From IMG/VR virus record IMGVR_UViG_3300018876_000008, positions 32,001-96,000 of that record: a DNA stretch of 64,000 nucleotides; one strand, 5' to 3'. This stretch comes from a virus. The notes beneath the pieces are model-generated. The model did not search any database. It was not told where the DNA came from and saw nothing but the letters and a program-made list of their open reading frames with translations. Positions 8,700 through 28,780 of the stretch are shown here, one piece after another. Numbering within the stretch: the stretch's first letter is position 1; each line of letters begins with the position of its first letter. The position numbers and the translations under genes were made by a program.

Positions 8700-8776
8700 T
8701 ATCTTATCCATACCCTTTATTTATTTTTCTAATTATTTATTTTGAATATATAATAAACTAATAATTTATATGATAA

Positions 8777-10210
8777 ATGTACTGTAGAGATAATAGTTAT
8801 AGTGATGGTATCGACAGATTTATAGTTATTACTGTCGCTACAGAAAATAACAAAGAATTAGACCGATTTAGAGAATCGTGTCATATTAATAATATACCCT
8901 ACAAGATTATTGGTTTAGGTCAAGAATGGACAGGAGGTGAGGCTAAAGATGGGGTATTGTTACAACCTGGAGGAGCACAAAAAATAAATCTTCTTAAGAA
9001 AGAATTAGAGGATTATCCTAATTTATCTAATCACATAATTTTATTTACAGATTCATATGATGTAATAATTAATTCAACACCAAGTGAAATAGTTAGTAAA
9101 TTTAGGACTATGAAATCACCCGTAGTATTTTCAGCTGAAAAAACTTGTTGGCCGAAAAAAGATTTACAAAATAAGTACCCACCATCAACTACGGAGTATA
9201 AATTTTTAAATTCAGGAGGATTTATTGGTTACGGAGACCACATAATTAAAATTGTAAATAAAATTGATGTAAGCAATGATTACGATGACCAACTATATTA
9301 CACTGAAAGATACTTTGAGTCTTTAGCTGAAGATAAGAATATCATTTTAGATAATAATCAAAATATATTTCAAACCCTTAATGAATCCTTAGATGATGTT
9401 TTGGTGAAGGACGGTAAAGTTTTTAACAGAATAACAAATACGTATCCTTTAATAATTCATGGAAATGGTGGTTCGTCAATAAAAAATGTCCTAAATGATT
9501 ATTACCGCAGGTTATTTGATAAAGATGTTACAACTATAAATTATTTTAAGAAGGAAGATGACTTGGAGGATTTTGAGGATAATGTTAATATAGGATTATT
9601 TCTTGATGAGGAAGTCCCTAACATTAATCAAACTTTCGACCACATTAGATTTTTAAAATACCCTAAAGATAAAATATCCCTCACAATATATTATTCTGAT
9701 AACACACACAAGTATGATATTGATTTGTTTGAGAAAAAATATTCACATATTTTTAAAGAGTTTTATGTAAAATTTAATGACGATGGTAAAATAAAGTCAC
9801 GAAAAGACTTTTTGATTAATTCTTATGGTCTGTCTGATTATACAGTTTTAATGGAATCAAATCACATTTTTAGAAATAATAAATCTTTAGGGTTGATTAT
9901 CAAAGAGTGTGAAGGTATAATAACTCCTATGATTCATAAAGAAGGTAGTGATTGGGTTAATTTTGATTGTGAAAAGACTAAAAAGGATTCTTACAGGACT
10001 TATGAAACTAAAGGAATATGGGAGGTAAATTATCTTTACGGTATACACGTCATAAAAAATGATTTAATTCCTTACTGTGTAAATTCTTTATATATTAATT
10101 ACGATAACTATACAGACCCTAATTGGGACATTATGTTGTGTGATAATTTAAAAAGTAGAGGGGAAACTCTACAAATTTCAAATACAAACTATTACGGAGG
10201 AATTATATAA
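8777..10210 (+). CDS. PLOD/LH3-like glycosyltransferase (GT + accessory domain, no hydroxylase domain)
   Basis: Colinear with the PLOD N-terminal GT domain: VITVAT, GLGQEWTGG, GGAQKINLLKKEL, FTDSYDV, FSAEKTCWP, FLNSGGFIG, DDQLYYT, IFQTLN, IIHGNG. The second half has LKYPKDKISL, as in the PLOD accessory domain. Confidence 0.85.
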   Translation: MYCRDNSYSDGIDRFIVITVATENNKELDRFRESCHINNIPYKIIGLGQEWTGGEAKDGVLLQPGGAQKINLLKKELEDYPNLSNHIILFTDSYDVIINSTPSEIVSKFRTMKSPVVFSAEKTCWPKKDLQNKYPPSTTEYKFLNSGGFIGYGDHIIKIVNKIDVSNDYDDQLYYTERYFESLAEDKNIILDNNQNIFQTLNESLDDVLVKDGKVFNRITNTYPLIIHGNGGSSIKNVLNDYYRRLFDKDVTTINYFKKEDDLEDFEDNVNIGLFLDEEVPNINQTFDHIRFLKYPKDKISLTIYYSDNTHKYDIDLFEKKYSHIFKEFYVKFNDDGKIKSRKDFLINSYGLSDYTVLMESNHIFRNNKSLGLIIKECEGIITPMIHKEGSDWVNFDCEKTKKDSYRTYETKGIWEVNYLYGIHVIKNDLIPYCVNSLYINYDNYTDPNWDIMLCDNLKSRGETLQISNTNYYGGII

Positions 10211-10252
10211 TTCTTCTTTTTTTATTAATTATTTTTTACTATTTTTGTGTTT

Positions 10253-11899
10253 ATGGATAAACGTGAAAATTTACATTACAAAAAAGTTATAGACTCTTAT
10301 AGTATTGATTACTTTAGAGGTTATAACCGTATTAATGATAGATTTGAAACATATTCTGTACCTAAGTATGGTCATTGGGCTCATATTGATAAAAAGAGTG
10401 TCGATGAAAAAGAGTTTAAGGATAATTACGCTAATCAACAAGTTGCAGTTGAAAGTACAAAATACATAATAGTAATTGAAGAGTTTAGTAATAAAATTTC
10501 ATTAAAATTATATTCAACATTCCGAGCTCGTTCAGTAGGTGCAAAGTTTTTTAGAGTTAGAAAGGAATTATTATTTGTTACATACAATTTAAAGTTTAAT
10601 AATTTTTATACTGGTATTGTAAACAAAAAAAATAAAAAATTAATTAATAAGAGAGTTCGCGTTAATGATTTTTATAATCATCCTTTTAGTCGTATTGGTT
10701 TAGAAATAAGAAAAGTACTAAGAGACAGTTCACTAAAAAATGGTGGTAATATAGATGTTATACCTAATATGACAAAGATAAATGATTTATCGGATAACAT
10801 CATGAATATATTTTTAAACGCTATAATGGAAAAATGTGAAGTTAAATGTGATATTAGGAGTAAAGACCACGAGGAAAGGTTTTTTCAACTATTTTTAGAA
10901 TGTAATAAATTTAAGTATCCTAATAATTACAAAGAATACTCAAAATTACGTATACCTAAAAAACTACTTAAAAAACAAATTAATTTAGTTTCATCATTTA
11001 TGTCTACTAATTCTTTATATGGAAAAAAAGTACGAAAGTTTTTAAATAGTGGTGATAATATAGATTTTAATAAGTTAGTTAATCTCTATCGGTTGTTAGG
11101 AGTAGATTATTTTAACCTCTTAAATGATAGTGTATTTTCAAAAAACGATTTACAATACTATGATTCTTTTAAAGTTAACGAATTAGATTTTAGTTTAAAT
11201 TTATCAAACACAATGAAAACGAGGATAGTGAACGTGATAAATCAAGGACTTAGACTTAATTTACTTACAGACCATTTAAGGATGGTTAGTGACTTGAGAG
11301 AAAAACATAATTATATATTTAAATGTCATTTTAAAAATATAGATGAATTTAGTAATGAACATTATGATTTATCAGAGTTATTACAGTCTTATAATACAGG
11401 GGTAATTAACAGAAATTATGGTGATGAGGTTAATTCATGTATCGAAAATACGATAAGTGATTTAGTTGGTATTGAGTATTATCCAAAAGTATTAACTAAT
11501 ACTAAAGAGTATAATGAAGAATCACAAATTCAAAAAAATTGTGTAAGAACTTACTCCGAAAAATCAAATAATATTATAATATCACTTAGATGTGGTAATA
11601 TTAATAGTAATAATCGTGCAACTATTGAATATCGTTTTACTAAAAACAATATAGAAAGAGTACAATCTTTAGGAGGTAAAAACCATCAATTAAGTAATAT
11701 GTGGAAAGTACCTTTAGATATTTTAGATGAGAGAGTTAAAACCTTATATAAAAATAAAATATTAAATCCTCCTCATTTGTTTAAAGAATACAAAAGTGGT
11801 TTAGTAATTGAAAGACGCGCAGTATTAGATGGTGATTATGTAGTATGGGATAACATCGATGATTTACAAGAAAATGAAATTATGGATTTACCATTTTAA
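10253..11899 (+). CDS. PcfJ-like domain protein (start re-called to ATG 10253)
   Basis: C-terminal EESQIQKNCVRTY...RATIEY...QSLGGKN pattern of PcfJ-like domains; ends in DLPF; TATTTTTG box at 10240-10247. Confidence 0.7.
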   Translation: MDKRENLHYKKVIDSYSIDYFRGYNRINDRFETYSVPKYGHWAHIDKKSVDEKEFKDNYANQQVAVESTKYIIVIEEFSNKISLKLYSTFRARSVGAKFFRVRKELLFVTYNLKFNNFYTGIVNKKNKKLINKRVRVNDFYNHPFSRIGLEIRKVLRDSSLKNGGNIDVIPNMTKINDLSDNIMNIFLNAIMEKCEVKCDIRSKDHEERFFQLFLECNKFKYPNNYKEYSKLRIPKKLLKKQINLVSSFMSTNSLYGKKVRKFLNSGDNIDFNKLVNLYRLLGVDYFNLLNDSVFSKNDLQYYDSFKVNELDFSLNLSNTMKTRIVNVINQGLRLNLLTDHLRMVSDLREKHNYIFKCHFKNIDEFSNEHYDLSELLQSYNTGVINRNYGDEVNSCIENTISDLVGIEYYPKVLTNTKEYNEESQIQKNCVRTYSEKSNNIIISLRCGNINSNNRATIEYRFTKNNIERVQSLGGKNHQLSNMWKVPLDILDERVKTLYKNKILNPPHLFKEYKSGLVIERRAVLDGDYVVWDNIDDLQENEIMDLPF

Positions 11900-11971
11900 C
11901 TTATTGACATAATAAAAATATTATACTATGTTTACTACAAAATAAATTCTATAATTAAATACTAAAAAAAA

Positions 11972-12169
11972 ATGTCAAAATTAAGAAGAAGAGTAATATA
12001 CACAGATATTAGATGGGAAGAAACAGAACCACTAACTGAAGAGCAAATTAAAAAATGGAAATCAGACGATGAAGAACTCCAAGAGGAAGTTATGGATGAG
12101 GTAGAGTTTGATTTAGTTAACGATAAGGCCTTAGAAGATTCTGATTGGCCCGAATTAATAGAAGAATAA
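11972..12169 (+). CDS. Small acidic hypothetical protein
   Basis: 65 aa; first gene of a + strand run, after TTGACA...TATGTTTA. Confidence 0.65.
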   Translation: MSKLRRRVIYTDIRWEETEPLTEEQIKKWKSDDEELQEEVMDEVEFDLVNDKALEDSDWPELIEE

Positions 12170-12179
12170 AAATAAAGAT

Positions 12180-12779
12180 ATGGCAAATAATTTAAAAAGT
12201 TTCGTTAAAGTTAATGCTAACGAAAAAACGGTAAAATTTATTGATTCTTTAATCGATAAAATTAATGATAATGACAATGATAGTTCTATAACTGCATTCG
12301 CAAAGGCATTCTACAACAATGTAGAGTTAGGTGAAAGTGGAGGTGTGATGAATTCGTGGTCGTTGGATAATCTTGGTTCTAAATGGACCACTTTGTACGA
12401 TGTTCAAGATGAGGCTGAGTTCTCAATAGAATCTGCTTGGTATCCACCAAAAGAATTTTTTATACATCTATATAACTTATGTGTAGAATTAGATGAAAAT
12501 GTTGAAATTGAAGTTACTTACGAAGATGAAACATATAGTCCAATTGGTGCGATTTTAATTAAGAAAGATAATGAAGGAACTCCTTGTATGTGGGTCGAAG
12601 AAGATGATGATATTGAGAATCCACTTGAGGATATGGATTGGGACGATGAGGAATATGATACAAAATCTGAGGAGTTTTATGATAGTATTTATGAGAATCA
12701 ACAATCACTATTGGCGTTATGTCATGAATTAGTATTAACAGATGGGGAACCAATATTAGAAAAAGAAGAAGTAGAATAA
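12180..12779 (+). CDS. YubB/DUF1281-like ferredoxin-fold phage protein
   Basis: WSLDNLGSKW, FSIESAWYPP and YEDE motifs; acidic tail. Confidence 0.55.
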   Translation: MANNLKSFVKVNANEKTVKFIDSLIDKINDNDNDSSITAFAKAFYNNVELGESGGVMNSWSLDNLGSKWTTLYDVQDEAEFSIESAWYPPKEFFIHLYNLCVELDENVEIEVTYEDETYSPIGAILIKKDNEGTPCMWVEEDDDIENPLEDMDWDDEEYDTKSEEFYDSIYENQQSLLALCHELVLTDGEPILEKEEVE

Positions 12780-12780
12780 T

Positions 12781-13917
12781 ATGAAAATTAAATTAGAATA
12801 TATTTGGTTAGATGGGTATAAACCCGAACCAAATCTTAGAAGTAAAGTAAAGGTTGTAGATGCACCTACCCATGAAGTTAAGGGTAAAACATTACACGGA
12901 ATAACATTAAAAGATTGTCCTCAATGGGGATTTGATGGTTCATCAACTAAACAGGCTGAAGGTAATTTTTCTGATTGTATCTTAAATCCTGTTAGGTTAT
13001 ATCCTAATCCACTTAACAAAGGTATATTAGATTCATACCTTGTTTTTTGTGAAGTTATGAATCCTGATGGTACTCCACATGAGTCTAATACTCGTAATTT
13101 ATTAGGTAAGGAAGATGATAAAGACTTATGGTTTGGTTTCGAACAAGAATATACCATCATGAAAGACAGTAAACCTATCGGATTCCCAAAAGATGGATTC
13201 CCTGAACCTCAAGGTAAGTATTACTGTGGTGTTGGTAATGGTCAAGTAAACGGTAGATTATTCGTTGAACAACATATGGAAAATTGTATTATGGCAGGTA
13301 TTGAAGTTACAGGTACTAATGCTGAAGTAATGTTAGGTCAATGGGAATACCAAGTATTAGGTAAAGGTAAACTAAAATCAGGTGATGACCTTTGGGTATC
13401 GAGATATATTTTAAATCAAATGTCAGAGGATTATGGTTTTAAAATAGAATACCACCCTAAACCTGTAACTGGTGATTGGAATGGTTCAGGATTACATTGT
13501 AACTTTTCTAATATTAAAATGAGAGAAGAAGGGGGTAAAGAATATTTTGATGCAATATTTAAAACATTTGAGTCAAGACATATTGAACACATAAAATGTT
13601 ATGGTTCTTCAAATGACATGAGGTTAACTGGTGACCACGAAACTCAATCAATTCATAAATTTAGTTGGGGAGTATCGGACAGAGGAGCATCAATTAGAGT
13701 TCCAATATCCACAGAAAAAGAATGGAAGGGATATGTTGAAGACAGGAGACCTGCTTCTAACGCAGACCCCTATAAAATCATTAACATTATTAATGAATCT
13801 ATAAATAACGCAGAAGAACTATACAAAACATTACACAATATGTATAGCGATGTAAAAGTAAGTGATGAAGTCAAAGAAATGGTTTTGACTGAACCATTAG
13901 AAAGAGATACTGAATAA
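12781..13917 (+). CDS. glnII: Glutamine synthetase type II
   Basis: LEYIWLDG, WGFDGSST, GFEQEY, PQGKYYCGVG, NAEVMLGQWEYQ, DWNGSGLHCNFS, RLTGDHET, RGASIRVP, EDRRPASN. Confidence 0.95.
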   Translation: MKIKLEYIWLDGYKPEPNLRSKVKVVDAPTHEVKGKTLHGITLKDCPQWGFDGSSTKQAEGNFSDCILNPVRLYPNPLNKGILDSYLVFCEVMNPDGTPHESNTRNLLGKEDDKDLWFGFEQEYTIMKDSKPIGFPKDGFPEPQGKYYCGVGNGQVNGRLFVEQHMENCIMAGIEVTGTNAEVMLGQWEYQVLGKGKLKSGDDLWVSRYILNQMSEDYGFKIEYHPKPVTGDWNGSGLHCNFSNIKMREEGGKEYFDAIFKTFESRHIEHIKCYGSSNDMRLTGDHETQSIHKFSWGVSDRGASIRVPISTEKEWKGYVEDRRPASNADPYKIINIINESINNAEELYKTLHNMYSDVKVSDEVKEMVLTEPLERDTE

Positions 13918-14291: not shown

Positions 14292-14294
14292 AAA

Positions 14295-14615: not shown

Positions 14616-14623
14616 ATTTTACA

Positions 14624-15904: not shown

Positions 15905-18900
15905 ATGGCTAAAGACGTAAGAATAGTACCACAACCCACAGGAACTACACTTCCTTATATTTTATTTGAAAATGCAAATGGTGATGTTATGTCACTTAAT
16001 GTTAGTGATGATGGTCGCATAGTATTTTCAGGTGCCACTCATGGTAATAATTTAGTAACCATAGATAGTGACCGTGTTAATATTAAAGGCTCAATACATA
16101 TGGGTAATGACATGGGATTCAACGGGGTTATGACTATTACCGATACTGGAGGGTGGAAAGGTAGTACAGTCGGATTAAAAGGTAATAAAGGTACTGTAGG
16201 ACCAACAGGTCCAAAAGGACATCAAGGACCAACAGGCCCCGCAGGTGCAAGAGGGACAACCGTTAAAGGTGAAAGTGGTGATAAAGGAAGAAAAGGTCTT
16301 AAAGGTCTTAAAGGGCTTAAAGGTAATATTGGTACCAGTAGAATATTTTATAATGATGGAGATAAAGGGTTAAAAGGAAAACAAGGACCACAATCAACTG
16401 ATAAAGGAGATAAAGGACTTAAAGGTCTTAGAGGTGTTAAAGGCGAAATAGGTCAATTAGGTCCAATAGGTATACAAGGACCACAAGGCCCTGTGGGTTT
16501 AAAAGGAATTAACTCAGATAAAGGTATAGTTGGTGATAAAGGGGATAAAGGATTAAAAGGTCTAAAAGGTTTAAAAGGGTTAAAGGGTCCTGTCGGATTA
16601 AAAGGTAAAAAAGGTATTTTGGGACCACAAGGTCCTATTTCTCAAGCCGGTAATGTTGCGGATAAAGGAACAAAAGGTCCAAAAGGGCCACAAGGTCAAA
16701 AGGGACCAAAAGGAATTCAAGGACCACAAGGTACAAAAGGGTTAACCGCAAACACAGGAGGTCAAGGACCAATAGGGCCTAAAGGGCCAACAGGGAGTAA
16801 AGGTATTAAAGGACTTCGTGGTAACAAAGGGGTTAAGGGACTTAAAGGACTTAAGGGGCTTAAAGGTCGTAAAGGTCTTATTGCGGTAACTGGTGATAAT
16901 GGTCAACAAGGCCCAATCGGTCAACAAGGTCCCATTGGTTTTAAAGGTGATAAAGGACTTAAAGGTTTAGAAGGACCAAAAGGACCAAAAGGTATCAAAG
17001 GTCCTCAAGCCGAAACAACCGTTCAAGGACCACAAGGTTCACAAGGACTACAAGGAAATACTTCTACCGATAAAGGTATCAAAGGTCAGAAGGGATTAAA
17101 AGGTAATAAAGGTATAAAAGGATTAAAACCTAATAGTGGTGAAAGAGGGAATATAGGAGAAACAGGACCTAATGGGCCTCAAGGTATTCAAGGTCCGAAA
17201 GGAGATGATAAAGGTCAAAAAGGTTTTAAAGGTATAAAAGGTAAAAAAGGAGTTAAAGGAGCCATAGGTCCACAAGGTGAAATTGGTAATCAAGGTAATA
17301 TTGCTACCACTGGTGATAAAGGTCTTAAAGGATTATTCGGTCCAACAGCATTTAAAGGATTAAAAGGGTTAAAAGGTAATAAAGGATTAAAAGGTCCAAA
17401 AAATATTCAAGGACCACAAGGACCTGTCGGGTTGGATGCGGATAGAGGTTCGATAGGTAATCAAGGACTTCAATCGACCGATAAAGGATTAAAAGGTCCA
17501 AAAGGTCCAAAAGGAATTAAAGGATTAAAAGGTTTAAAACCTGGAAGAGGACCCCAACCTAGTGTAGGGTCGAGGGGAGTTCAAGGACCACAAGGACCAC
17601 AAGGACCGCAAGGGCCTACATCAGCAGATAAAGGATTTAAGGGACTTAAGGGACTTAAAGGTATTACAGGTGTAAGAGGAGAACAAGGTATAGGTGGACA
17701 AAGAGGAACTCAAGGGACACAAGGACCAACAGGAAATAGAGGTAATACAGGTACTAGCTCAGATAAAGGAAATAGAGGTCCCCAAAGTACTGAAAAAGGA
17801 TTAAAAGGACCTGACGGAGGTAGAGGACCTCAATCGACCGATAAAGGACAAAAGGGACCTCAAGGAAGTAGAGGGGCAAAGGCCTCAACAGGTGACCAAG
17901 GACCAACCAGTACTGATAGAGGGAATCAGGGTGAAACCGGTCCTAATGGGCCAAATTCAACTGATAAGGGACAAAAAGGACCTAGAGGAGGAATAGGTAC
18001 TCAAGGACCTAAAGGTTATAAAGGACCACAAGGACCTGCTAACAATGACAGAGGCCCGGTAGGTGATAAAGGTTTTAAAGGACCAAAAGGAAATAGAGGT
18101 GCTATCGGTGGACAAGGTTCAGTGGGTAACACTTCTACCGTTAAGGGTTCTATAGGTCCCTCTAATACTACAAAAGGTCTTAAAGGAATTAAAGGTAGAA
18201 AGGGTAGTGAAGGTCCAAGAGGACCAGAAGGCCCTCAAGGACCAAGAGGTACAGCATCTACAGTTAAAGGATATAAAGGACCTAGTAATAGTGTTAAAGG
18301 TATTAAAGGGTTAAAAGGTTTAAAAGGTTTAAAGGGCCCAAGAGGACCACAAGGTCCAAGAGGACCACAAGGTAGTACATCTACAGTTAAAGGTTCTATA
18401 GGAAATCCTAATAACTTGCAGGGTTTAAAAGGTTCAAAAGGTTTAAAAGGTCTAAAAGGTAGTACAGGACCAAGAGGTCCACAAGGGGCGAGAGGTAATG
18501 TGTCGACAGTTAAAGGATATAAAGGTTTAGCCAATAATACAAAAGGAAATACAGGAGAAACGGGACCTCAAGGTTTAAAAGGTCGACAAGGTAGTCAAGG
18601 ACCACAAGGTCCAAGAGGAACGGCTTCTACTGTTAAAGGACCAAAAGGATTGACAAATACAACTAAAGGTCCAAAAGGTCTTAAAGGGTTAAAAGGACTT
18701 AAAGGAACCAAAGGTCGAAAAGGAGACAAAGGGTTAATAGGTAATCAGTCCACAGTCAAAGGATATAAAGGACCTAATAATACTACAAAAGGACCTAAAG
18801 GACCTAAAGGGTTAAAAGGGTTAAAAGGAAATTTTGGACCTGCAGGATTTAAAGGATTTAAAGGTCCACAATCAACAGTCAAAGGTGCTATAGGTGAACA

Positions 18901-19765
18901 AGGAGTTAAAGGACTAAAAGGAATAAAAGGATATAAAGGACCTGACGGAGGTAGAGGACCTCAAGGAAATAAAGGTGTAAAAGGTCCTGTTGGAAGACCT
19001 GGACCTACCGGACCAACAAATACAACTAAAGGTTTAAAAGGACCAACAGGCCCAAATGGACCTCAAGGACCGAGAGGAGGAATAGGACCACAAGGTATTA
19101 AAGGTCAGAGAGCCCAACAAGGACCATTAGGAGATGTTGGTGATGAGTATGGTCCAAAAGGTCGTAAAGGTGCTATAGGACCTACCAATACAGATAAAGG
19201 TCCAAAAGGACCTATCGGTCGTGATAATCTAACTAAAGGTGCGAAAGGACCTAAAGGTGATATAGGTCCTGTCCTCGTAAAAAATGGACCTGGTGACCAA
19301 GGACCAACAGGTCCAAGAGGAAATAAAGGACCCAAAGGTCCGATAGGTAGAACGGGACCAACAGGACCTATAGGGGGTACAGGACCACAAGGTCCACAAG
19401 GTCCAAGAGGGGCTCAAGGGGTACAAGGACCTCAAGGACCTGCTTCAGATAAGAGAGTTAAAAATAATATTAAGTCTTTAAAGGGTAATTTATCTAAATT
19501 AAAAAATATTAGAGGTGTTAAATTTACATGGAAGGGTGGAATAAATCACAGATTTAATATAAAAGGAAATGATATCGGTTTTATCGCTCAAGAAATTGAT
19601 AAAGTTATACCTGACGTGGTATTTACTGGTGAAGACGGATTCTTAAAATTAGAATACGGTAAGTTAGTTGCTATTGGGATTGGTTCAATACAAGAGCAAC
19701 ATACACGTATAACTCAACTTAAGGAGAGAATTAACATATTGAAATCAAAAGTTTTAAATGGGTAG
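15905..19765 (+). CDS. Collagen-like tail fibre 1 with C-terminal peptidase S74 chaperone
   Basis: Over 1000 aa of interrupted Gly-X-Y (GLK, GPK, GPQ); C-terminal SDKRVKNNI...GFIAQE domain with coiled coil. Confidence 0.88.
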   Translation: MAKDVRIVPQPTGTTLPYILFENANGDVMSLNVSDDGRIVFSGATHGNNLVTIDSDRVNIKGSIHMGNDMGFNGVMTITDTGGWKGSTVGLKGNKGTVGPTGPKGHQGPTGPAGARGTTVKGESGDKGRKGLKGLKGLKGNIGTSRIFYNDGDKGLKGKQGPQSTDKGDKGLKGLRGVKGEIGQLGPIGIQGPQGPVGLKGINSDKGIVGDKGDKGLKGLKGLKGLKGPVGLKGKKGILGPQGPISQAGNVADKGTKGPKGPQGQKGPKGIQGPQGTKGLTANTGGQGPIGPKGPTGSKGIKGLRGNKGVKGLKGLKGLKGRKGLIAVTGDNGQQGPIGQQGPIGFKGDKGLKGLEGPKGPKGIKGPQAETTVQGPQGSQGLQGNTSTDKGIKGQKGLKGNKGIKGLKPNSGERGNIGETGPNGPQGIQGPKGDDKGQKGFKGIKGKKGVKGAIGPQGEIGNQGNIATTGDKGLKGLFGPTAFKGLKGLKGNKGLKGPKNIQGPQGPVGLDADRGSIGNQGLQSTDKGLKGPKGPKGIKGLKGLKPGRGPQPSVGSRGVQGPQGPQGPQGPTSADKGFKGLKGLKGITGVRGEQGIGGQRGTQGTQGPTGNRGNTGTSSDKGNRGPQSTEKGLKGPDGGRGPQSTDKGQKGPQGSRGAKASTGDQGPTSTDRGNQGETGPNGPNSTDKGQKGPRGGIGTQGPKGYKGPQGPANNDRGPVGDKGFKGPKGNRGAIGGQGSVGNTSTVKGSIGPSNTTKGLKGIKGRKGSEGPRGPEGPQGPRGTASTVKGYKGPSNSVKGIKGLKGLKGLKGPRGPQGPRGPQGSTSTVKGSIGNPNNLQGLKGSKGLKGLKGSTGPRGPQGARGNVSTVKGYKGLANNTKGNTGETGPQGLKGRQGSQGPQGPRGTASTVKGPKGLTNTTKGPKGLKGLKGLKGTKGRKGDKGLIGNQSTVKGYKGPNNTTKGPKGPKGLKGLKGNFGPAGFKGFKGPQSTVKGAIGEQGVKGLKGIKGYKGPDGGRGPQGNKGVKGPVGRPGPTGPTNTTKGLKGPTGPNGPQGPRGGIGPQGIKGQRAQQGPLGDVGDEYGPKGRKGAIGPTNTDKGPKGPIGRDNLTKGAKGPKGDIGPVLVKNGPGDQGPTGPRGNKGPKGPIGRTGPTGPIGGTGPQGPQGPRGAQGVQGPQGPASDKRVKNNIKSLKGNLSKLKNIRGVKFTWKGGINHRFNIKGNDIGFIAQEIDKVIPDVVFTGEDGFLKLEYGKLVAIGIGSIQEQHTRITQLKERINILKSKVLNG

Positions 19766-22700
19766 AGATATTAACATAAATCCAACAGGTGGTACAATTC
19801 ATTTTTCAGGTCAATCAAATACTAAGATTGATGTGAAATATACTAGCGGTGAATTAAATTTTAATACTCACTTAGGTAACGACTTTAAAATAACGAATCA
19901 TTTAGAACTTGATAGTTTAAAATTTATGGCTGAAACCTCAGTTGTAAAAAATAATAGTGATGAATTAATTGACGACCGTGGTAACTGGAAAGGGCATGCA
20001 ATGAATATGGGAGGGCCAACAGGACCAACAGGGCCACAAGGACCTGTAGGGGCAAAAGGTGATGAACCATCTGCAGGTCAAAGAGGTGCAAAAGGTGAAA
20101 AAGGTATTAAAGGACAGACTTCATTAGAACAAGGACCTACGGGTGACGTTGGACCAAAAGGTCTTAAAGGTATTAAAGGTGAGAAAGCCTCCCAAGGACC
20201 ACAAGGACCTGCAGGGGTAAAAGGTTTAATTGGACCACAAGGTTCTGAAGGACCAGCTGGACCTGCCGCGATTAAAGGGGATATTGGGACACAAGGACCT
20301 AAAGGGTTAAAAGGTTTACAAGGTATTAAAGGTTCAATAGGTAATTCAATTAAAGGTCCTATAGGTGCAGATGCAGATAAAGGTAATACAGGACCTACCG
20401 GTAATAATAAAGGAGATATTGGACCTAAAGGTATTGTTGGGGATAAAGGTCCACAAGGACCAATTGGTCTTACAGCAAATTTAGATGTTTATGTTTTCTA
20501 TGATGCAACATCAATGCCAAGTGATAAGGCTAAAGAGGCTTCTCAAAGTGTTAGAGATTGGTTCCAAACGGTAAACGGTAATGGTGACATTAACAAATTA
20601 TACGAGGGTGTAATCGGTAAAAACAATGTTAATGGTGAAAACTGGTTATGGTGGGCATCTTATCCATATCTTGGTTCACTTAGTGGTGGTACGTTGAGTA
20701 ACGGAACACAGTTGAGTGAATTTAATAGTGCGGTACCTAACGCCACTTATGATTCCGATTATTGTAAATCTAATTCGGGTGGTAATTGTGTACCAAGAAA
20801 TTCACAATTTAATGATGGTCTAACCACATATAGAAGAATTAACAGAGGTCTTAATTTAGATACTGGTGCTGTAGAAAATATTTCTCAAGGGGTTCCTTTT
20901 GACCATAGTAATTTAAATAATACAGAAACATCGGGACAGGGTTCATTCGGTGGTGATAATACTAATTATTTAGTTATCATAGTCGCCGATGAGTCAGATG
21001 GTATTGTTGGTTTATATCATGGACAGTTAGGTGGGACACCAACCAACGCTACTAAGAGTGATTTATATAATAAACCATTTGAACTGAATGGTGATTATTG
21101 GAATAATAGTGCCGGTACTGAATATACTAATAGATATTTACACGACTACTGTGCATATATACAAGTTTATGAAGACATTATATCTAATAGACAAGGAAAT
21201 GCAAGAGGTTTAATATATCCTGTAGTAAATCCACTTAGAGGTACCGCCACATATGCATTTGTTCAACATGCGGTTGGTGCTGTTGAAGGTGAAACCATTA
21301 CTACTCAAGAATTTTTAAATAGTTACGGAGACCAAATGGATTCAGTTGGTCCTGAAAATTTAAATTTAACTGCATTAACACATACTAATGTATATTCAGC
21401 TTTAGCTTCTGAAAATTGTTATACGAGTTTAAATGTAGATTTTAAAAATGGGGCGGGGTTAAAACACTTTGGTTTTGGAGTTGACCCAACCGTAGATAAT
21501 TTTACTGAAGAGGTGGTAACAAATGCGTTAACATCATTTTTACGTCAACAAGGTGATACAGGTGACCAAGGTAATAAAGGTATTACAGGTGATGATAAAG
21601 GAACAAAAGGTCTTAAAGGTATAAAGGGACTAAAAGGTATTAAAGGACAAAGAGGTCCTAATACGGATTCAGGTTTAAAAGGTGCGATAGGTGACCAAGG
21701 ACCTGTTGGTATTGACGGTCCAATAGGTAACTTAAAAGGACCCAAAGGTGAAGTAGGTGTTGTTGGGCCAAAAGGTTTAAAAGGTCCTGATGGTAGTATA
21801 GGTGATTCACCAAAAGGTGCTGTTGGGTTAACAGGTGACCAAGGACCTACAGGTGGTAGAGGTGAAACATCGACAGATAAGGGTCAAAAAGGTATTAAAG
21901 GACAAAGAGGTGTTAAGGGATTAAAAGGATTAAAAGGTATCAAAGGGTTAATAGCAGTTCAAGGGGATGTAGGACCAACAGGACCTCAATCAGATAAAGG
22001 AATTGTTGGTGATAAAGGTAATAAAGGGCTTAAAGGTTTAAAAGGATATAAAGGTATCAAAGGAATTAAAGGTCCTATTGGTATAATTGCCGACCAAGGA
22101 GATACAGGACCCGTTTCTCAAAACGGTGAAGGTGCAGACAAAGGATTCAAAGGACTTAAAGGTATAAAAGGATTAAAAGGTAAGAAGGGTATTGAAGGAC
22201 CTAAAGGACCTACAGGTACATCTTCGGAAGAAGGTACTGTTGGACCTACAGGTGAAAAAGGAGAAAGAGGACCACAAGGAGATAAAGGTAATAAAGGTTT
22301 AAAAGGTCTTAAAGGTAAAAAAGGTATAAAAGGTACTAAAGGACTTAAAGGTTTAATTGCCAGTCAAGGAGATAAAGGACCACAAGGGCCAATTGGTGTT
22401 AAAGGTGAGCAAGGAAATAAAGGGGACAAAGGACTTAAAGGTATTAAAGGTCAAAAAGGTTATAAAGGATTAACCGGTCCTCAAGGTAACAAAGGTTTAA
22501 TGGCTTCTCAAGGAGATACAGGACCACAAGGACCGGCAAGTATTAAAGGTCAAAAAGGACTTAAAGGTATTAAAGGTCAAAAAGGATATAAAGGGTTAAG
22601 AGGTAATAAAGGTCCAAAAGGTTATAAGGGATTAAAAGGTATTACAGGTGATAAAGGATTTATTAGTACAGTTACCGGAGATAAAGGTATTAAAGGTCAA

Positions 22701-24941
22701 AAAGGGTTTAGAGCAACCGATGGAGATAAAGGTATAAAAGGGCAAAAAGGTTATAAAGGTAATCAAGGTCCAAGAGGAACTGCATCTACAGTAAAAGGTT
22801 TAAAAGGTCGTAAAGGTTTTAAAGGTAATAGGGCTACTGATGGTGTAAAAGGATTTAAAGGATTTAAAGGATTAAAAGGGTTACGAGGACCTTTGGGACC
22901 ACAAGGTAGTCAGGAGGGCCCAAAAGGATTAATAGGTGCAGAAGGCCCTATAGGTCCTACTGCCGATAAAGGTTTAAAAGGATTAAAAGGTATTAAAGGA
23001 CCCAAAGGACCTAAAGGACCTAAAGGATTAAGGGCAGGTGCAGTTGGACCAACAGGACCTAAAGGACCAATCGGACCTACTGCAGAAAAAGGATTTAAAG
23101 GTCTAAAAGGTCCAAAAGGTTATAAGGGACCTAAAGGACCTACAGGTTCCACAACAGGTGCTGAAGGAGATACAGGACCACAAGGTCCAACAGGTCCTAC
23201 CGCTTACAAAGGGTTTAAAGGGATAAAAGGATATAAAGGTCCGAAGGGTCCAAAAGGACCTCTTGGTTTGACAACAGGACCTAAAGGGTTAAAAGGACCT
23301 ATAGGTCAAACAGGACCAACTGCGAATAAAGGCCAAAAAGGATATAAAGGACCAAAAGGATATAAAGGACCTAAGGGTCCACTTGGACCGACTACAGGGG
23401 ATAAAGGACAAAAAGGTAAGAAAGGTTCGATAGGTGATAGTGCAAATAAAGGATTAAAAGGTCCAAAAGGGCCTAAAGGTTATAAGGGGCCTAAAGGAGA
23501 AAAAGGTCCTCATTCAAACAATAAAGGACCCGTAGGACCTCAAGGACCACTCGGACCTACCGCTGATAAAGGTGAACAAGGACCTAAAGGACCAATTGGA
23601 AATAAAGGACCTAAAGGACCAAAAGGAAGTGCAACCGGTGATAAAGGGCAACAAGGAGAGACAGGACCACAAGGACCTCTTGGAAAATCAGGACCAACTG
23701 GAGGTGTTGGAGATAAAGGTCCGAAAGGTGCCAAAGGTCCTCAAGGGTTAAATGGGATACAGTCAGGACCTACAGGACCACAAGGACCTGTTAATAACAC
23801 AAAAGGACAAAAAGGATATAAGGGACCTGAAGGTCCAATAGGTATACAAGGTCCCGAAGGAGAAATCGGTAATACGGAGGGAGCTCAAGGACCTAAAGGT
23901 AGTGTAAGTACGGTTAAAGGTCCTAAAGGACCTAAAGGTTATAAAGGACTGAAAGGATTATACGGTCCCAAAGGTTTAAAGGGTAGACAAGGACCGACTG
24001 ATATTAAAAAATTTATTGGTCAACAAGGTGATAAAGGACCAAGAGGAACAGATTCTACAGTTAAAGGACCGACAGGTCCACAAGGGGCTAAAGGGCCAAA
24101 AGGACCCATAGGACCTAAAGGAGCTAGAAAAACTCAAGGACCGACAGGTCCACAAGGGGCTAAAGGGCCAAAAGGTTACAAAGGACCTACAGGGCCACAA
24201 GGTCCAAGAGGTCAAAAAGGACGTGTAGGTGCAAGTGGACTTAGTGGTCCACAAGGGGAAAAAGGATTTAAAGGTAGGAAAGGACCTGCGGGACCTTCAG
24301 GTGTATCGTGTTATTCACACGATGTTGCACTTATAAGTGATAAAGCATTACCATGTAGCTTTTGTGATAGAGATGCGCCACCGTGTGGTGAGGAACCCAA
24401 CGTTACAGTATATTCTCCTAATTCAGGGGCATTAAGTGCGGGTAATTTTGTTTATACTGACTCAAATTGTACCGAATGTAGAACACCGAGACCTGGTTGT
24501 TTTGATGATAAGTCAGGCCAATTTACATTATGGGACGCTGACCATAATAATAGTTCTATACATACTTGGGATTTACAATTTTGTGGATTATTAAAGTGTG
24601 CGGATTGTTCCTTCTCAGATGAAAGACTTAAAACTGGTATTAGAACAATATCTAATTCATTAGAATCCTTATTAAACATTCAAGTTACTGAGTACGATTG
24701 GAATGAGAAATATTCGGGTTACGATTTCTTAAAAGAAAGACAAAAACTTCACTCTATTGGTATGATTGCACAAGATATCCAAAAAATATTTCCTGAAGTA
24801 GTTTACAAAAGAAGTGATGGTTACTACGCTATTAAATATTTCAAATTAAATGCACTAATAATAGAATCGATTAAGTCTCACCAAGTATTTATAGATGATA
24901 TTGATGAACAAATAAAATGGTTAAAAACACAAATTAATTAA
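19758..24941 (+). CDS. Collagen-like tail fibre 2 with inserted vWA-like domain, Cys-rich tip and S74 chaperone
   Basis: Gly-X-Y blocks interrupted by a ~355-aa globular insert (VYVFYDATS...LVIIVADES); Cys-rich region; SDERLK...GMIAQD. Confidence 0.88.
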
Positions 24942-27900
24942 TGGCTAATATTATTATATACCCTACAGGGAGTACTACTAATAGTAATCCTCACATTATA
25001 TTTACAGGTTCAGGTAGTAATGATTATACTATTGAAATAGATACTAGTGGTGATTTAATATTTAAATCGTCTAGCAATATTTTTAAAATTAAAGATAGTG
25101 CTCAACCATTTCAATTTGACGGTGAAGTAGATGTGGTTAATAGTGAATTATATGTGGGTAATACTATGGTTGTTGATTCAAATGGTAATTGGGTTGGAGT
25201 ATTATCAGGATTAAAAGGAATACAAGGACCAATTGGTGCAAAAGGAAGAGTTGGTGACCAAGGACCTAAAGGTGCAAAAGGTCAAGAAGGTCCTGTTGGT
25301 GAGCAAGGAGATAAAGGTAATCTAGGTATTAAAGGAAGAATAGGTTCTACAGGAATTAAAGGTGCAAAAGGACCTATTTCAGTTAAAGGTGATAAAGGTA
25401 ATAGAGGGCCTCAAGGGGAAGACGGAGCGGTAGGACCTAAAGGTTTAAAAGGTGTAAGACCTTCAGACAGTAGTAAAGGTATAAAAGGACCAAAAGGTTT
25501 AAAAGGAGAAACATCTAACGATAAAGGTTTAAAAGGACCTATAGGTTTTAAAGGTATTAAAGGTAATAAAGGACCGAAACAAGTTACAGGACCCCAAGGG
25601 TCTCAAGGAGGTATTTCGCCAAAAGGACCTATTGGGTTACAAGGTCCGACAAGTACTGACAAGGGTCAAAAAGGACCTAAAGGTATTAAAGGAGTAAAAG
25701 GTCAGAAAGGTATTGACGGTAATAAAGGTCCTGAAGGTGATAAAGGTTTAAGATATACTGATGGGGACCAGGGGCCACAAGGACCTACAGGTCCTACTGC
25801 AGACAAAGGTATTAAAGGTAACAAAGGTGTTAAGGGGTTATTAGGTCCACAGGGAATACAAGGACCTGATGGTACTGTTGGTACTCAAGGACCACAAGGA
25901 CCCTTAGGACCACAGGGTGTACAATCTTCAGATAAGGGAGATAAAGGTATTAAAGGTATTAAAGGTAGGAAAGGAATTAAAGGTCCTAAACAAGTACGTG
26001 GTAATATTGGTATACAAGGTGATAAAGGTTTTATAGGGCCACAAGGACCTGAAGGACCAGCAGGACCTGCAGCCGTTAAAGGACCTATAGGTCCACAAGG
26101 GCCGATTGGGCCAAAAGGTTTGGAAGGGAACCGAGGGCCACAAGGTTCATCATTAAAAGGACCAACAGGTTCGGGAGGTGAGAAAGGTCCGCAAGGTGAT
26201 AATAGTACAGATAAAGGTCCTATAGGTATAAAAGGACCGATAGGTATAAAAGGTTTTAAAGGACCTAGAGGACCACAATCAGAAGTAAGTGTTGGTGATA
26301 AAGGTAATACTGGACCCATAGGACCACAAGGACCGGCTAGTTCCGATAAAGGACTAAAAGGGCCTCAAGGGTTTAAAGGGTTAAAAGGTAAGAGAGGACC
26401 ACAAGGACCACAAGGAAATAATGAAAAAGGATTTATAGGTGATGGTGCACAAGGGGGAGATATAGGTCCAACAAATACTGATAAAGGACACCAAGGACCA
26501 ACTGGACCTGTCGGACCAAAAGGTTTTGTAGGTACTAAAGGTAGTATAGGTACGTCTCCTCAAGGTGATGTAGGAGATGGTGGTGACCAAGGACCTACTG
26601 CAAGTCAAGGGCCAGCAAGTACCGATAAAGGACTAAAAGGTTTAAAAGGATTTAAAGGGCCAAAAGGGTTTACAGGCCCTCAAGGAGGTATAGGACCTAG
26701 AATTACAGGACCCACAGGACCTAATGGACCTACCGGACCAACAAATACAGATAAAGGTTTAAAGGGTTTTCAAGGACCAACAGGTCCTACTAATACGGAT
26801 AAAGGCACACAAGGGTCTAAGGGGCCAAGAGGACCTCAAGGTGGTCAAGGACCAACAGGACCTAACGGACCTAAAGGTATAACAGGAGGTCAAGGACCTC
26901 AAGGACCTACTAGTACTGATAAAGGTGTTAAAGGTCAAAAAGGATATAAAGGACCTGAAGGGCCAACAGGAGAAAAGGGACCATTAGGACCAAAAGGATT
27001 ACAAAATAATACACAAGGAGACCAAGGACCCGTATCAAGTGATAGGGGTGATAAAGGGCCTAAAGGTATTAAAGGTATCAAAGGTGTTAAAGGACCTAGA
27101 GGTGAACAAGGAGCCAAGAATATTACAGGAGCAAAAGGACCAACAGGACCCCAAGGACCTGCTGGAAATAATAAAGGACCAATTGGACAATTAGGACCCA
27201 TAGGGTTTACAGGTCCACAAGGTTTAAAAGGTAGTACAAGTGATATAGGTAATAAAGGTCCGATAGGACCACAAGGACCCGCGAGTACGGATAGAGGGGT
27301 ACAAGGTAATATAGGTGCATTTATTGGACAAGGCCCCCAAGGACCTCAAGGACCAAATAGTTCAACAGGTCTTGTTGGTGCTCAAGGACCAATAGGACCT
27401 GCGGGTAACAATAAAGGACCAATCGGCCCTCAAGGTAATAGAGCGGATAAAGGACCTATCGGTCCTGTAGGGGAGAAGAATAATACTGGTGGACAAGGAC
27501 CAACCGGCCCACAAGGACCGGCTAGTAGTGATAGAGGACCCCAAGGACCCCAAGGTAATAAGGCACAAACAGGTGACCAAGGACCAATAGGTCCGCAAAA
27601 TATAGTAGGTGCTCAGGGACCCATAGGACCACAAGGGCCGGCTAGTTCAGACAAAGGACCAAAAGGACCATTAGGACCTATAGGACCTATAGGACCACAA
27701 GGCTCTATAGGTTCCAAGAATGCGACTGGTGGTGTTGGTGATAGAGGACTTCAAGGAGACCAAGGACAAAATAGAGGACCTCAAGGAGACCAAGGACCAA
27801 TACAGTCAGGAGGTTCTCAAGGTATACAAGGACTAAAAGGGTTAAAAGGACTAAAAGGAGGTAGAGGTACTCAAGGTCCAAATAGTTCTGATAAAGGACC

Positions 27901-28780
27901 AATAGGTCAAAAAGGGCCTAGAGGTCCACAAGGACCAAGAGGAGGAAATGGTATACCAGGACCACAGGGTCCAACAGGACCTAACGGACCGATTGGACCT
28001 GAAGGTAATAAAGGTATTAAAGGAATAAAAGGTTTTATAGGACCTAAAGGTCCCAAAGGACCACAAGGCCCACAAGGCCCAACCGGCCCACAAGGACCAC
28101 TAGGACCGTTAGGGTCAAGTAGTACAGATAAAGGAGAAAAAGGTTCAAAAGGACGTAAAGGACCGATAGGGATAACAGGAGCTAAAGGGCCAAAAGGTTA
28201 CAAAGGACCTAAAGGTTCAATAGGTCTTGATGGTGCGAATGCAGATAAAGGTATTAAAGGTCTAAAGGGTCCTTTACAACTTAAGGGACGTAAAGGTCCT
28301 ATTGGACCACAGGGTCCCACAGGCCCTAAAGGGTCACAAGGATTAATTGGACCTAAAGGTTATAAAGGTCCTACAGGTGGTGGAGGACTTCAAGGAGCCA
28401 CAGGACCTCAAGGACCTGCCGGAGCACAAGGACCAGCAGGAGGACCATCTGACAAAAGATTAAAAGAAAATATTGTTACCATTGATGAAGCACTTAAAAA
28501 AGTATTGAAATTAAGAGGAGTAGAATTTATATGGAGAAAAGAAGGTATTAATGGTGAAATCATTGATGAGGGTGGTAGAAAAGATATTGGTGTTATTGCA
28601 CAAGAAGTTAAAGAGGTTTTACCTGAATTAATTCTTGGTGACGAAGAAAGTGCTTATAGAGTAAGATACGGTGAAATGATATCAATATTATTTGAGGCTA
28701 TTAAAGAACAAGAATCAATACTAGATTTAAAAGAAGATGAGTTAGAAGAGTTAGAGAGAAAATTTAAAGATAATCAGTAA
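24941..28780 (+). CDS. Collagen-like tail fibre 3 with C-terminal peptidase S74 chaperone
   Basis: Long Gly-X-Y region; SDKRLKENI...GVIAQEV. Confidence 0.88.

What the first reader, a model, noticed from the sequence alone, without database searches (positions are those of the whole stretch)
8777..10210. Animal-type PLOD glycosyltransferase domain in a phage
The match to the LH3 GT domain covers its whole length, including DxD (TDSYD), FSAE..CWP, FLNSGGFIG, the Asp-rich DDQL helix and HGNG. A degenerate accessory GT-A domain follows (LKYPKDKI). This points to an old shared module or gene exchange among phages, giant viruses and eukaryotes.
Basis: partly seen in the sequence, partly recalled or inferred. 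Interest (0 to 1): 0.7.

Follow-up and report, generated by a model that had tools for sequence, protein, structure and literature searches.

The report
PLOD-type glycosyltransferase for phage collagen fibres
A very large marine bacteriophage encodes a close look-alike of the animal enzyme that puts sugars on collagen, next to three giant lysine-rich collagen-like fibre genes, so phages probably hydroxylate and glycosylate their own collagen fibres as animals and mimivirus do.

Summary
ORF 8777-10210 (477 aa) matches Pfam GT_PLOD (E 3.6e-75) and aligns end to end with the GT and accessory (AC) domains of human LH3 (E 1e-59) and with mimivirus R699 (E 8e-43). All Mn2+, UDP-sugar and acceptor residues are conserved. 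The AC domain has lost its DxD.

The context explains the gene. Three collagen-like fibre genes of 1279-1727 aa lie 5.7 kb downstream, with Lys at the Y position of 33-49% of triplets. Elsewhere in the same 169-kb record are a stand-alone PLOD-type lysyl hydroxylase (E 2e-31 to LH3) and a COLGALT-like GT25. Metagenomic relatives fuse GT25, GT, AC and LH into one protein. Related phage contigs keep the GT-fibre synteny.

Cultured phages (Synechococcus phages S-PRM1 and S-CAM9, Roseobacter phage CRP-6) carry GT25-GT-LH fusions beside collagen-like tail fibres.

On trees the gene sits in a metagenomic large-phage clade. It is not nested in animals, and its relation to the animal and giant-virus clades is unresolved.

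Most likely it is a Gal-Hyl glucosyltransferase acting on the phage's own fibres; no biochemistry supports this yet. I found no paper describing it in phages. Other first-stage notes on this genome had already flagged the split-PLOD idea.

The parts
8777..10210 (+). GT-AC gene (477 aa): a stand-alone PLOD/LH3-type glycosyltransferase with an accessory domain and no LH domain
   Evidence: Pfam GT_PLOD E 3.6e-75; LH3 E 1.2e-59 and R699 E 8e-43; Foldseek best hits LH3 and R699; single copy in the record
8813..9526 (+). Catalytic GT-A domain, residues 13-250. Mn2+ ligands D92, D95, H228. UDP-sugar and acceptor residues W51, K69, Y94, E121, W125, N145, D170, D171, Q172, N230.
   Evidence: Residue-by-residue alignment to LH3. 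These residues are invariant in 23 relatives. W51, K69, D92, D95, E121, W125, D170-Q172, H228 and N230 are invariant, and Y94 and N145 nearly so, in 32 diverse GT domains including animals. Their roles come from R699 mutagenesis (PMC12279948). 41-44% identical to animal PLOD GT domains.
9563..10207 (+). Accessory (AC) GT-A-like domain, residues 263-477, with the DxD position degenerate (E-S-N). Predicted docking surface for the separate lysyl hydroxylase.
   Evidence: Aligned to the LH3 AC domain; 21-25% identity to animal and moumouvirus AC; complex model with the LH protein
8718..8740 (+). Two TATTTAT motifs at -59 and -43 of the GT-AC start: a candidate promoter element shared with the first fibre gene
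   Evidence: The motif lies within 80 nt upstream of 56 of 215 genes, against about 0.04 expected per 80 nt. It is also at -37 of fibre gene 1 (sequence). Function not tested.
15905..19765 (+). Collagen-like fibre 1 (1286 aa): 278 Gly-X-Y triplets, Lys at Y in 42%, C-terminal S74 intramolecular chaperone. Proposed substrate.
   Evidence: Translation; triplet statistics; Pfam Collagen and Peptidase_S74
19758..24941 (+). Collagen-like fibre 2 (1727 aa): 297 triplets, Lys at Y in 49%, a 359-aa non-collagen insert, a Cys-rich region and an S74 domain. Proposed substrate.
24941..28780 (+). Collagen-like fibre 3 (1279 aa): 272 triplets, Lys at Y in 33%, C-terminal SDKRLKENI chaperone-type end. Proposed substrate.
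57228..57989 (-). Divergent 2OG-Fe(II) dioxygenase related to the lysyl hydroxylase family (third paralogue in the genome). HxD and the distal His are present; Lys replaces the 2OG-binding Arg.
   Evidence: hhalign to the LH alignment: probability 97.9%, E 5.5e-13; PDB prolyl 4-hydroxylase E 3.5e-5 and L230 LH domain E 9e-5; no Pfam hit

Best explanation
The ORF encodes a retaining, Mn2+-dependent GT-A glycosyltransferase of the LH3/R699 kind, with a non-catalytic accessory domain. It is the last enzyme of a phage-encoded collagen-lysine modification pathway whose substrates are the phage's own three Gly-X-Lys collagen-like fibres.

Proposed order, all steps inferred:
1. The fibre chains are made.
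2. The stand-alone PLOD-type lysyl hydroxylase (G000 12707-13342, outside the window) hydroxylates Y-position Lys on the unfolded chains. It may be docked on the AC domain of this protein, so that the two gene products rebuild an LH3-like module.
3. The stand-alone GT25 (COLGALT-like, G000 about 148568-149317) adds galactose to hydroxylysine.
4. This enzyme adds glucose to Gal-Hyl from UDP-glucose.
5. The C-terminal S74 chaperone domains trimerise the chains, which zip into triple helices of roughly 300 nm, and then cleave themselves off.

Shown here: homology, catalytic-residue conservation, gene content, domain fusions and synteny. Not shown: enzyme activity, sugar identity, modification of the fibres, and physical association of the proteins.
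For: (1) Family and active site. GT_PLOD E 3.6e-75; LH3 E 1e-59 and R699 E 8e-43; best folds LH3, R699 and the human GGT domain. The Mn2+ ligands and the donor/acceptor residues that R699 mutagenesis found essential (K62, E114, W118, N138, D162, D163, H216, N218; PMC12279948) correspond to K69, E121, W125, N145, D170, D171, H228 and N230 here. All eight are invariant in 23 relatives. In the 32 diverse domains, seven are invariant and N145 is nearly so. [quoted passage not shown]

(2) Substrate. The only collagen-like ORFs in the 169-kb record are the three fibres 5.7 kb downstream. They carry 354 Lys at Y against 8 at X, and Lys occupies Y in 33-49% of triplets. X-Lys-Gly is the LH recognition context (established knowledge).

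(3) The rest of the pathway is in the same genome. The LH protein gives E 2e-31 to LH3 residues 500-713 and E 1e-23 to the mimivirus L230 LH domain, with H142, H190 and R200 invariant and D144 nearly so. The GT25 protein's only PDB matches are human COLGALT1 chains, best E 2e-8.

(4) Rosetta-stone fusions. Relatives occur as GT25-GT-AC (P0033, 60% identical), GT25-GT-AC-LH (P0129, P0133) and GT25-GT-LH. The stand-alone GT25 and LH align to the fused domains (E 8e-16 and 1e-34).

(5) Conservation. GT-to-fibre synteny is kept in relatives down to 59% identity. An LH orthologue is present in 4 of 5 related IMG/VR records.

(6) Independent phage lineages. In cultured S-PRM1, S-CAM9 and CRP-6, a GT25-GT-LH fusion sits two or three genes from a tail fibre gene with 59-99 triplets, Lys at Y in 26-39% and none at X.

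(7) Complex model of AC (263-477) with LH. ipSAE 0.76, best control 0.01. That mark was reached by 58 of 80 solved complexes and 2 of 110 mismatched pairs (counts hold only roughly, because my own alignments were used). The runs share at least 93% of their contacts and the partner's pLDDT is at least 80. The interface joins the GT-AC C-terminus (471-477) to the LH N-terminus (7-9). LH3 is solved with this interface inside one chain, so the pass may reflect that likeness only.
Against: There is no biochemical or proteomic evidence. The LH and GT25 genes lie 28 kb and 107 kb from the GT gene, not in one operon. LH and GT25 lack the TATTTAT motif shared by the GT and fibre 1. GT25 was found in only 1 of 5 related records, though all five are 32-66% complete fragments. 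Sequence cannot fix the donor sugar or the acceptor. Mimivirus L230 puts glucose directly on Hyl, and R699 also makes free kojibiose. A preference for Lys at Y is partly a general property of collagen-like sequences, so it does not by itself prove hydroxylation. In the AF2 model the relative orientation of GT and AC is uncertain (pTM 0.54; rmsd about 18 A to full-length LH3).
Confidence: 0.7

Rival explanations
1. The enzyme does glycosylate the phage collagen fibres, but with different chemistry from LH3 and R699: a sugar placed directly on hydroxylysine (as mimivirus L230 does with glucose), or a donor other than UDP-glucose.
For: L230 glucosylates Hyl directly (PMC9546862). GT25 was missing from 4 of 5 related partial records. 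The window carries a further GT11-like transferase after the fibre module, so the glycan may be more complex.
Against: The acceptor-binding Glu (E121) and the whole LH3/R699 sugar pocket are invariant. A COLGALT-like GT25 is in this genome and is fused to the GT-AC in the closest fused relative. R699 did not act on Glc-Hyl.
Confidence: 0.17
2. The glycosyltransferase modifies the host cell surface (LPS or capsule) to block superinfection. This is the usual reading of GT25 and other GT genes in the tail-fibre regions of marine myophages.
For: GT25 is annotated as LPS biosynthesis in Pfam and by JGI. The pelagimyophage literature reads GTs near fibre genes this way (PMC7029224).
Against: That reading does not explain the repeated fusion of this GT to a protein lysyl hydroxylase. 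It does not explain the conserved adjacency to Gly-X-Lys collagen fibres. It does not explain conservation of the Gal-Hyl pocket. PF25342 matched none of 14 control prokaryote genomes, and two strict family motifs matched no confirmed relative in 185,579 prokaryote species genomes.
Confidence: 0.06
3. The gene is a passenger or decaying acquisition with no role in the phage, or it only makes a free disaccharide of the kojibiose type.
For: R699 shows kojibiose synthase and uncoupled UDP-Glc hydrolysis activity.
Against: The frame is intact. Full-length orthologues at 59-98% identity appear on many contigs in conserved synteny. The catalytic residues are invariant. The gene is present in every related large record examined.
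Confidence: 0.04

Closest known systems
Human LH3 (PLOD3), GT and AC domains (PDB 6fxk, 6wfv, 8zgc)
   Same: Same two-domain GT-A plus degenerate GT-A layout. GT domain 41-44% identical to animal PLODs. Same DxxD/His Mn2+ site, same glycoloop Trp, poly-Asp helix and acceptor Glu/Asn. Collagen Lys context available as substrate.
   Different: No LH domain in the polypeptide; the hydroxylase is a separate gene 28 kb away, with two further paralogues. It would work in a bacterial cytoplasm rather than the ER. It is not nested within the animal clade. Poly-Asp reads D-Y-D-D rather than D-D-D-D.
Mimivirus R699, stand-alone collagen galactosylhydroxylysyl glucosyltransferase (PDB 9dyt; PMC9546862, PMC12279948)
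   Same: Stand-alone GT-AC protein of similar size (458 vs 477 aa) in a virus that also encodes collagens, an LH (L230) and a GLT25D-like protein (R655). All residues found essential in R699 are conserved.
   Different: The host is a bacterium, not an amoeba: the window encodes a phage lysozyme and M23/PG-binding proteins. Only 39% (GT) and 25% (AC) identical to the moumouvirus orthologue, which falls in a different subclade. The R699 dimer was not tested here.
GT25-GT-LH fusion proteins of cultured marine phages (Synechococcus phages S-PRM1 and S-CAM9, 614 aa; Roseobacter phage CRP-6 gp58, 589 aa), annotated hypothetical
   Same: Same GT_PLOD catalytic domain (33-35% identity in the cyanophages, 28% in CRP-6), linked to LH and GT25 functions and to collagen-like tail fibres with Lys at Y.
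   Different: Those are one polypeptide without an AC domain. They form the most distant clade (SH-aLRT 98) from the AC-bearing forms to which the window gene, the NCLDV forms and the animal forms belong.
Human COLGALT1/GLT25D1 and the LH3-COLGALT1 complex (PDB 9evj, 8zgc)
   Same: The genome's separate GT25 protein has human COLGALT1 chains as its only PDB matches, best E 2e-8. Together with the GT-AC and LH genes it gives the same three activities as the human complex.
   Different: The phage GT25 is a single 249-aa domain. Similarity is modest, and a complex with the GT-AC protein was not tested.

Membership tests
PLOD GT domain family (Pfam PF25342; LH3/R699-type collagen glucosyltransferases) | Sequence match to the family profile above the curated threshold, over the whole domain | tested here: met
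   252.8 bits against a cut-off of 27; profile positions 4-239 of 246
PLOD GT domain family (Pfam PF25342; LH3/R699-type collagen glucosyltransferases) | Mn2+ site: DxxD plus distal His (LH3 D112, D115, H253) | tested here: met
   D92, D95 and H228 align to these residues and are invariant
PLOD GT domain family (Pfam PF25342; LH3/R699-type collagen glucosyltransferases) | UDP-sugar and acceptor pocket: LH3 W75, K89, Y114, E141, W145, N165, D190, D191, N255 (R699 K62, E114, W118, N138, D162, D163, N218) | tested here: met
   W51, K69, Y94, E121, W125, N145, D170, D171 and N230
PLOD GT domain family (Pfam PF25342; LH3/R699-type collagen glucosyltransferases) | GT-A fold most similar to LH3 and R699 | tested here: met
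   Foldseek: LH3 E 4.5e-43, R699 E 7.5e-39, 6wfv TM 0.87 and rmsd 2.2 A
PLOD GT domain family (Pfam PF25342; LH3/R699-type collagen glucosyltransferases) | Gal-Hyl glucosyltransferase activity on collagen | not testable with these tools
   Needs an enzyme assay or virion mass spectrometry
[quoted passage not shown] | C-terminal Fe2+/2OG lysyl hydroxylase domain in the same polypeptide | tested here: not met
   The ORF stops at the residue aligned with LH3 chain residue 492. The LH is a separate 211-aa gene outside the window. So this is not a PLOD proper but a split form.
[quoted passage not shown] | Non-catalytic accessory domain between GT and LH | tested here: met
   Residues 263-477 align to the LH3 AC domain; the DxD position is degenerate
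R699-type stand-alone viral GGT (GT-AC without LH) | Two-domain protein of about 460-480 aa without LH, encoded by a virus that also encodes collagen-like proteins and a lysyl hydroxylase | tested here: met
R699-type stand-alone viral GGT (GT-AC without LH) | Antiparallel homodimer with cooperative UDP-glucose binding | not tested
Phage collagen-like tail fibre with S74 chaperone (proposed substrate) | Long Gly-X-Y region plus C-terminal Peptidase_S74 intramolecular chaperone | tested here: met
   272-297 triplets per chain. PF13884 E 1e-14 and 3e-15 on fibres 1 and 2. Fibre 3 has the SDKRLKENI-type end but was not scanned.

The most novel reading that the evidence does not exclude
Bacteriophage virion fibres are true hydroxylysine-glycosylated collagens. 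A complete lysyl-hydroxylase, galactosyltransferase and glucosyltransferase pathway, so far known only from animals and mimivirus, works in the bacterial cytoplasm and is widespread in marine phages, from megaphages of about 400 kb to cultured cyanophages and roseophages. The AC-bearing GT-AC(-LH) architecture of animal PLODs belongs to a mainly viral radiation.
Probability: 0.55. Interest if true: 0.8.

Novelty: new variant of a known kind. Interest (0 to 1): 0.7.

Why it matters
Hydroxylysine-linked Glc-Gal is treated as a hallmark of animal collagen, with mimivirus as the one outside case. A phage version would add a new class of virion post-translational modification in bacteriophages. It would also change how the glycosyltransferase and 2OG-oxygenase genes in the tail-fibre regions of marine phages are read; they are currently taken as LPS modifiers or metabolic genes. 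It would supply enzymes that are naturally active in a bacterial cytoplasm for making hydroxylated, glycosylated recombinant collagen, a gap the R699 authors point out (PMC9546862). The idea can be tested directly, because cultured phage-host pairs (S-PRM1 or S-CAM9 on Synechococcus, CRP-6 on a roseobacter) carry the fused version next to collagen-like fibres. It also bears on where the metazoan PLOD architecture came from, though these trees do not resolve that.

Tried and rejected
- Scanning viral contigs with the single protein found no relative; an alignment was needed.
- The genome-contig scan (185,579 prokaryote species) with two strict family motifs found no confirmed relative. A broader alignment (A3) had no stretch conserved enough to search with, so distant bacterial homologues are not excluded.
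- Relatives cannot be drawn for a virus record.
- Cluster look-ups gave organism names only for animals; everything near the window gene is unnamed metagenomic.
- Phage hallmarks: Terminase_6C and the NCLDV capsid family were not found in the 56%-complete record. PHROG scans of ten large ORFs outside the window gave only an SbcC-like nuclease and unknown-function families. The case for a bacterial host rests instead on phage lysozyme, M23 peptidase and PG-binding domains, the PHROG hits and the S74 fibres.
- PF03171 found no LH; PF13640 did.
- A recent transfer from animals is rejected: 41-44% identity in the GT domain, and the gene lies outside the animal clade.
- DNA glycosylation was considered and set aside, because the fusions to a protein lysyl hydroxylase and the conserved Gal-Hyl pocket argue for a protein substrate.

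Full report
**Observation.** The window has about 30% G+C. It is part of a 169,337-bp IMG/VR virus record that CheckV rates 56% complete. Pfam GT_PLOD (PF25342) matches residues 14-246 at E 3.6e-75. Human LH3 aligns over residues 13-476 (chain residues 14-492, E 1.2e-59), which covers the GT and accessory (AC) domains and ends exactly where the LH domain would start. Mimivirus R699 gives E 8e-43. An AF2 model built on 23 relatives (pLDDT 87.6) has LH3, R699 and the isolated human GGT domain (TM 0.87, rmsd 2.2 A, 40% identity) as best folds, followed by COLGALT1. The GT/AC orientation in the model is not reliable (pTM 0.54).

**Active site.** From the LH3 alignment and the R699 mutagenesis paper (PMC12279948), the Mn2+ ligands are D92, D95 and H228. 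The donor and acceptor residues are W51, K69, Y94, E121, W125, N145, D170, D171, Q172 and N230. All are invariant in 23 relatives. In 32 diverse GT domains including animals, eleven of these thirteen residues are invariant and Y94 and N145 are nearly so. [quoted passage not shown] In the AC domain the GT-A DxD position reads E-S-N and varies among relatives, and identity to animal or moumouvirus AC domains is only 21-25%.

**Context inside the window.** Three head-to-tail genes lie at 15905-19765, 19758-24941 and 24941-28780 and encode proteins of 1286, 1727 and 1279 aa.
- Each has 272-297 Gly-X-Y triplets.
- Lys occupies the Y position in 42%, 49% and 33% of triplets: 354 Lys at Y against 8 at X.
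- Pro occupies X in 33-44% of triplets and is almost never at Y.
- Fibres 1 and 2 end in Peptidase_S74 intramolecular chaperone domains, and fibre 3 has the same kind of C-terminal motif.
- They are the only collagen-like ORFs in the record.

At 0.286 nm per residue (established value for collagen), about 1080 collagenous residues give fibres of roughly 300 nm; this is an inference. A phage lysozyme, an M23 peptidase with a PG-binding domain and another PG-binding protein show that the virus attacks peptidoglycan, so its host is a bacterium. No NCLDV capsid gene was found.

**The rest of the pathway, outside the window.** At G000 12707-13342 lies a 211-aa stand-alone dioxygenase. It matches LH3 residues 500-713 (E 2e-31) and the mimivirus L230 LH domain (E 1e-23). 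Its H142, H190 and R200 are invariant and D144 is nearly invariant; these correspond to the LH3 Fe2+ triad and 2OG-binding Arg. A tandem paralogue lies just upstream (31% identity). A third, more divergent paralogue is in the window at 57228-57989 (-). At about G000 148568-149317 a 249-aa GT25 protein has human COLGALT1 chains as its only PDB matches, best E 2e-8. The genome therefore encodes all three activities of the animal and mimivirus collagen-lysine pathway, plus candidate substrates.

**Comparative evidence.**
- The GT-AC protein has 59-98% identical full-length orthologues on marine metagenomic contigs of up to 412,709 bp.
- Synteny (DnaJ, D12 methylase, GT, PcfJ-like, GS-like, Trx, Grx, fibre) is kept down to 59% identity, and the downstream protein is again a Gly-X-Lys collagen.
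- LH orthologues at 72-87% identity are present in 4 of 5 related IMG/VR records. GT25 is present in 1 of 5. All five records are fragments.
- An exhaustive search gave 2725 representative clusters at E <= 1e-3. Their architectures are GT-AC, GT25-GT-AC (including the closest fused relative, P0033, 60% identical), GT25-GT-AC-LH, GT25-GT-LH, a form with a methyltransferase inserted in the GT domain, and the animal GT-AC-LH.
- These fusions tie the three separate phage genes to one pathway. The stand-alone GT25 and LH align to the fused domains at E 8e-16 and 1e-34.
- Many phage-sized IMG/VR contigs place a GT25-GT-LH fusion next to collagen-like ORFs with about 20% Lys at Y and none at X.
- The same is true of cultured phages. 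In S-PRM1 and S-CAM9 a 614-aa 'hypothetical protein' (GT25 1-190, GT 213-433, LH 430-609) lies three genes after the tail fibre gene (at least 59 triplets, 22-23 Lys at Y). In Roseobacter phage CRP-6, gp58 lies two genes after tail fibre gp60 (99 triplets, 26 Lys at Y).

**Split-PLOD docking.** A complex model of AC (263-477) with the LH protein scored ipSAE 0.76, with a best control of 0.01. That mark was reached by 58 of 80 solved complexes and 2 of 110 mismatched pairs; the counts hold only roughly because my own alignments were used. The runs agree in at least 93% of their contacts and the partner's pLDDT is at least 80. The interface brings the GT-AC C-terminus (471-477) next to the LH N-terminus (7-9). 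LH3 has been solved with this interface within a single chain, so the pass may only reflect that likeness. It supports binding but does not show it.

**Phylogeny.** In a FastTree of 172 GT domains and an IQ-TREE (LG+C20+F+G4) of 69, the window gene sits in a tight clade with P0033 (support 99). That clade lies inside a 17-row all-metagenomic clade (98). The animal-containing GT-AC-LH clade (95) and the NCLDV/R699 groups are separate, and the three meet in an unresolved fork. The AC-less cultured-phage GT25-GT-LH clade is the most distant (98). The gene is therefore not a recent capture from animals, and the direction and age of exchange remain open. No confirmed relative was found in 185,579 prokaryote species genomes with two strict motifs, and PF25342 matched none of 14 control genomes. 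Distant bacterial homologues are not excluded.

**Regulation (weak).** TATTTAT lies within 80 nt upstream of 56 of 215 genes, against about 0.04 expected per 80 nt. These include the GT (-59 and -43) and fibre 1 (-37), but not LH or GT25.

**Literature.** Searches found the mimivirus system (L230, R655, R699 and the collagens; PMC9546862, PMC12279948). They also found a general prediction that bacterial dioxygenases modify collagen-like proteins (PMC2938197). They found no description of a PLOD-type lysine hydroxylation and glycosylation system in bacteriophages. GTs in marine myophage fibre regions are currently read as LPS modifiers (PMC7029224). Other first-stage notes of this scan on the same genome had already proposed a split PLOD with Gly-X-Lys fibres. 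I had reached the LH gene independently and tested their claims.

**Verdict.** The protein is a stand-alone, R699-like member of the PLOD GT family and is not a full PLOD. Its most likely role is glucosylation of Gal-Hyl on the phage's own collagen fibres. Confidence is 0.7 for fibre glycosylation in general and lower for the exact sugar chemistry. Enzyme activity, the modification itself and the protein-protein contacts are all inferred, not shown.

Noticed in passing
window 15905-28780: The three fibre genes overlap at stop/start, have similar N-terminal domains of about 85-90 aa and similar collagenous lengths. Fibre 2 alone carries a 359-aa globular insert (about residues 235-595) and a Cys-rich region before its S74 domain. 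This suggests either a heterotrimer or three distinct fibres of about 300 nm.
   Followed up: partly
window 15905-28780: The collagen interruptions are stereotyped 4- or 13-14-residue breaks such as S-T-D-K-G, S-T-V-K-G and N-T-D-K-G. The Lys is again followed by Gly, so these may be a second class of hydroxylation sites, or Ser/Thr modification sites.
   Followed up: no
G000:C1:11952-12563 (L003:362-973), outside the window: A second intact LH-like dioxygenase (203 aa, 31% identical, HxD...H...R present) lies in tandem just upstream of the lysyl hydroxylase. It is conserved next to LH in four related records. It may have a different site specificity or be a prolyl hydroxylase for the abundant X-position Pro.
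   Followed up: partly
G000:C1:138162-138743 (+) and 139109-139825 (-), outside the window: Two further PF13640 (prolyl 4-hydroxylase-type) 2OG-Fe(II) oxygenase ORFs.
   Followed up: no
window 34622-35554: A GT11-like (fucosyltransferase family) glycosyltransferase (Pfam E 3e-7; phrog_2644) lies downstream of the fibre module, after two paralogous phrog_17056 proteins (30130-33443). It may be a further glycan-decorating enzyme.
   Followed up: no
window 10247-14908; L009:16026-17792: The block between the GT and the fibres (PcfJ-like 550 aa, a GS-like protein, thioredoxin, glutaredoxin) is syntenic in relatives. One relative inserts a NodU/CmcH-type carbamoyltransferase between Trx and Grx. 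The redox proteins could help keep the hydroxylase iron reduced (speculation).
   Followed up: no
metagenomic relatives P0044-P0100 (692 aa) and L019: In a sister group a class-I methyltransferase domain is inserted inside the GT_PLOD domain, some members also having an N-terminal GT25. L019 has two collagen-like ORFs downstream with little Lys at Y (0.11 and 0.01).
   Followed up: partly
P0126 (1113 aa, metagenomic): This protein has two GT_PLOD matches in one chain (Pfam, 2 stretches, E 1.9e-146). Its origin is unknown.
   Followed up: no
window 44865-45923: A 352-aa thymidylate-synthase-family protein (phrog_160, E 3e-100). Whether it is a true ThyA or a dNMP hydroxymethylase (DNA hypermodification) was not examined.
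   Followed up: no
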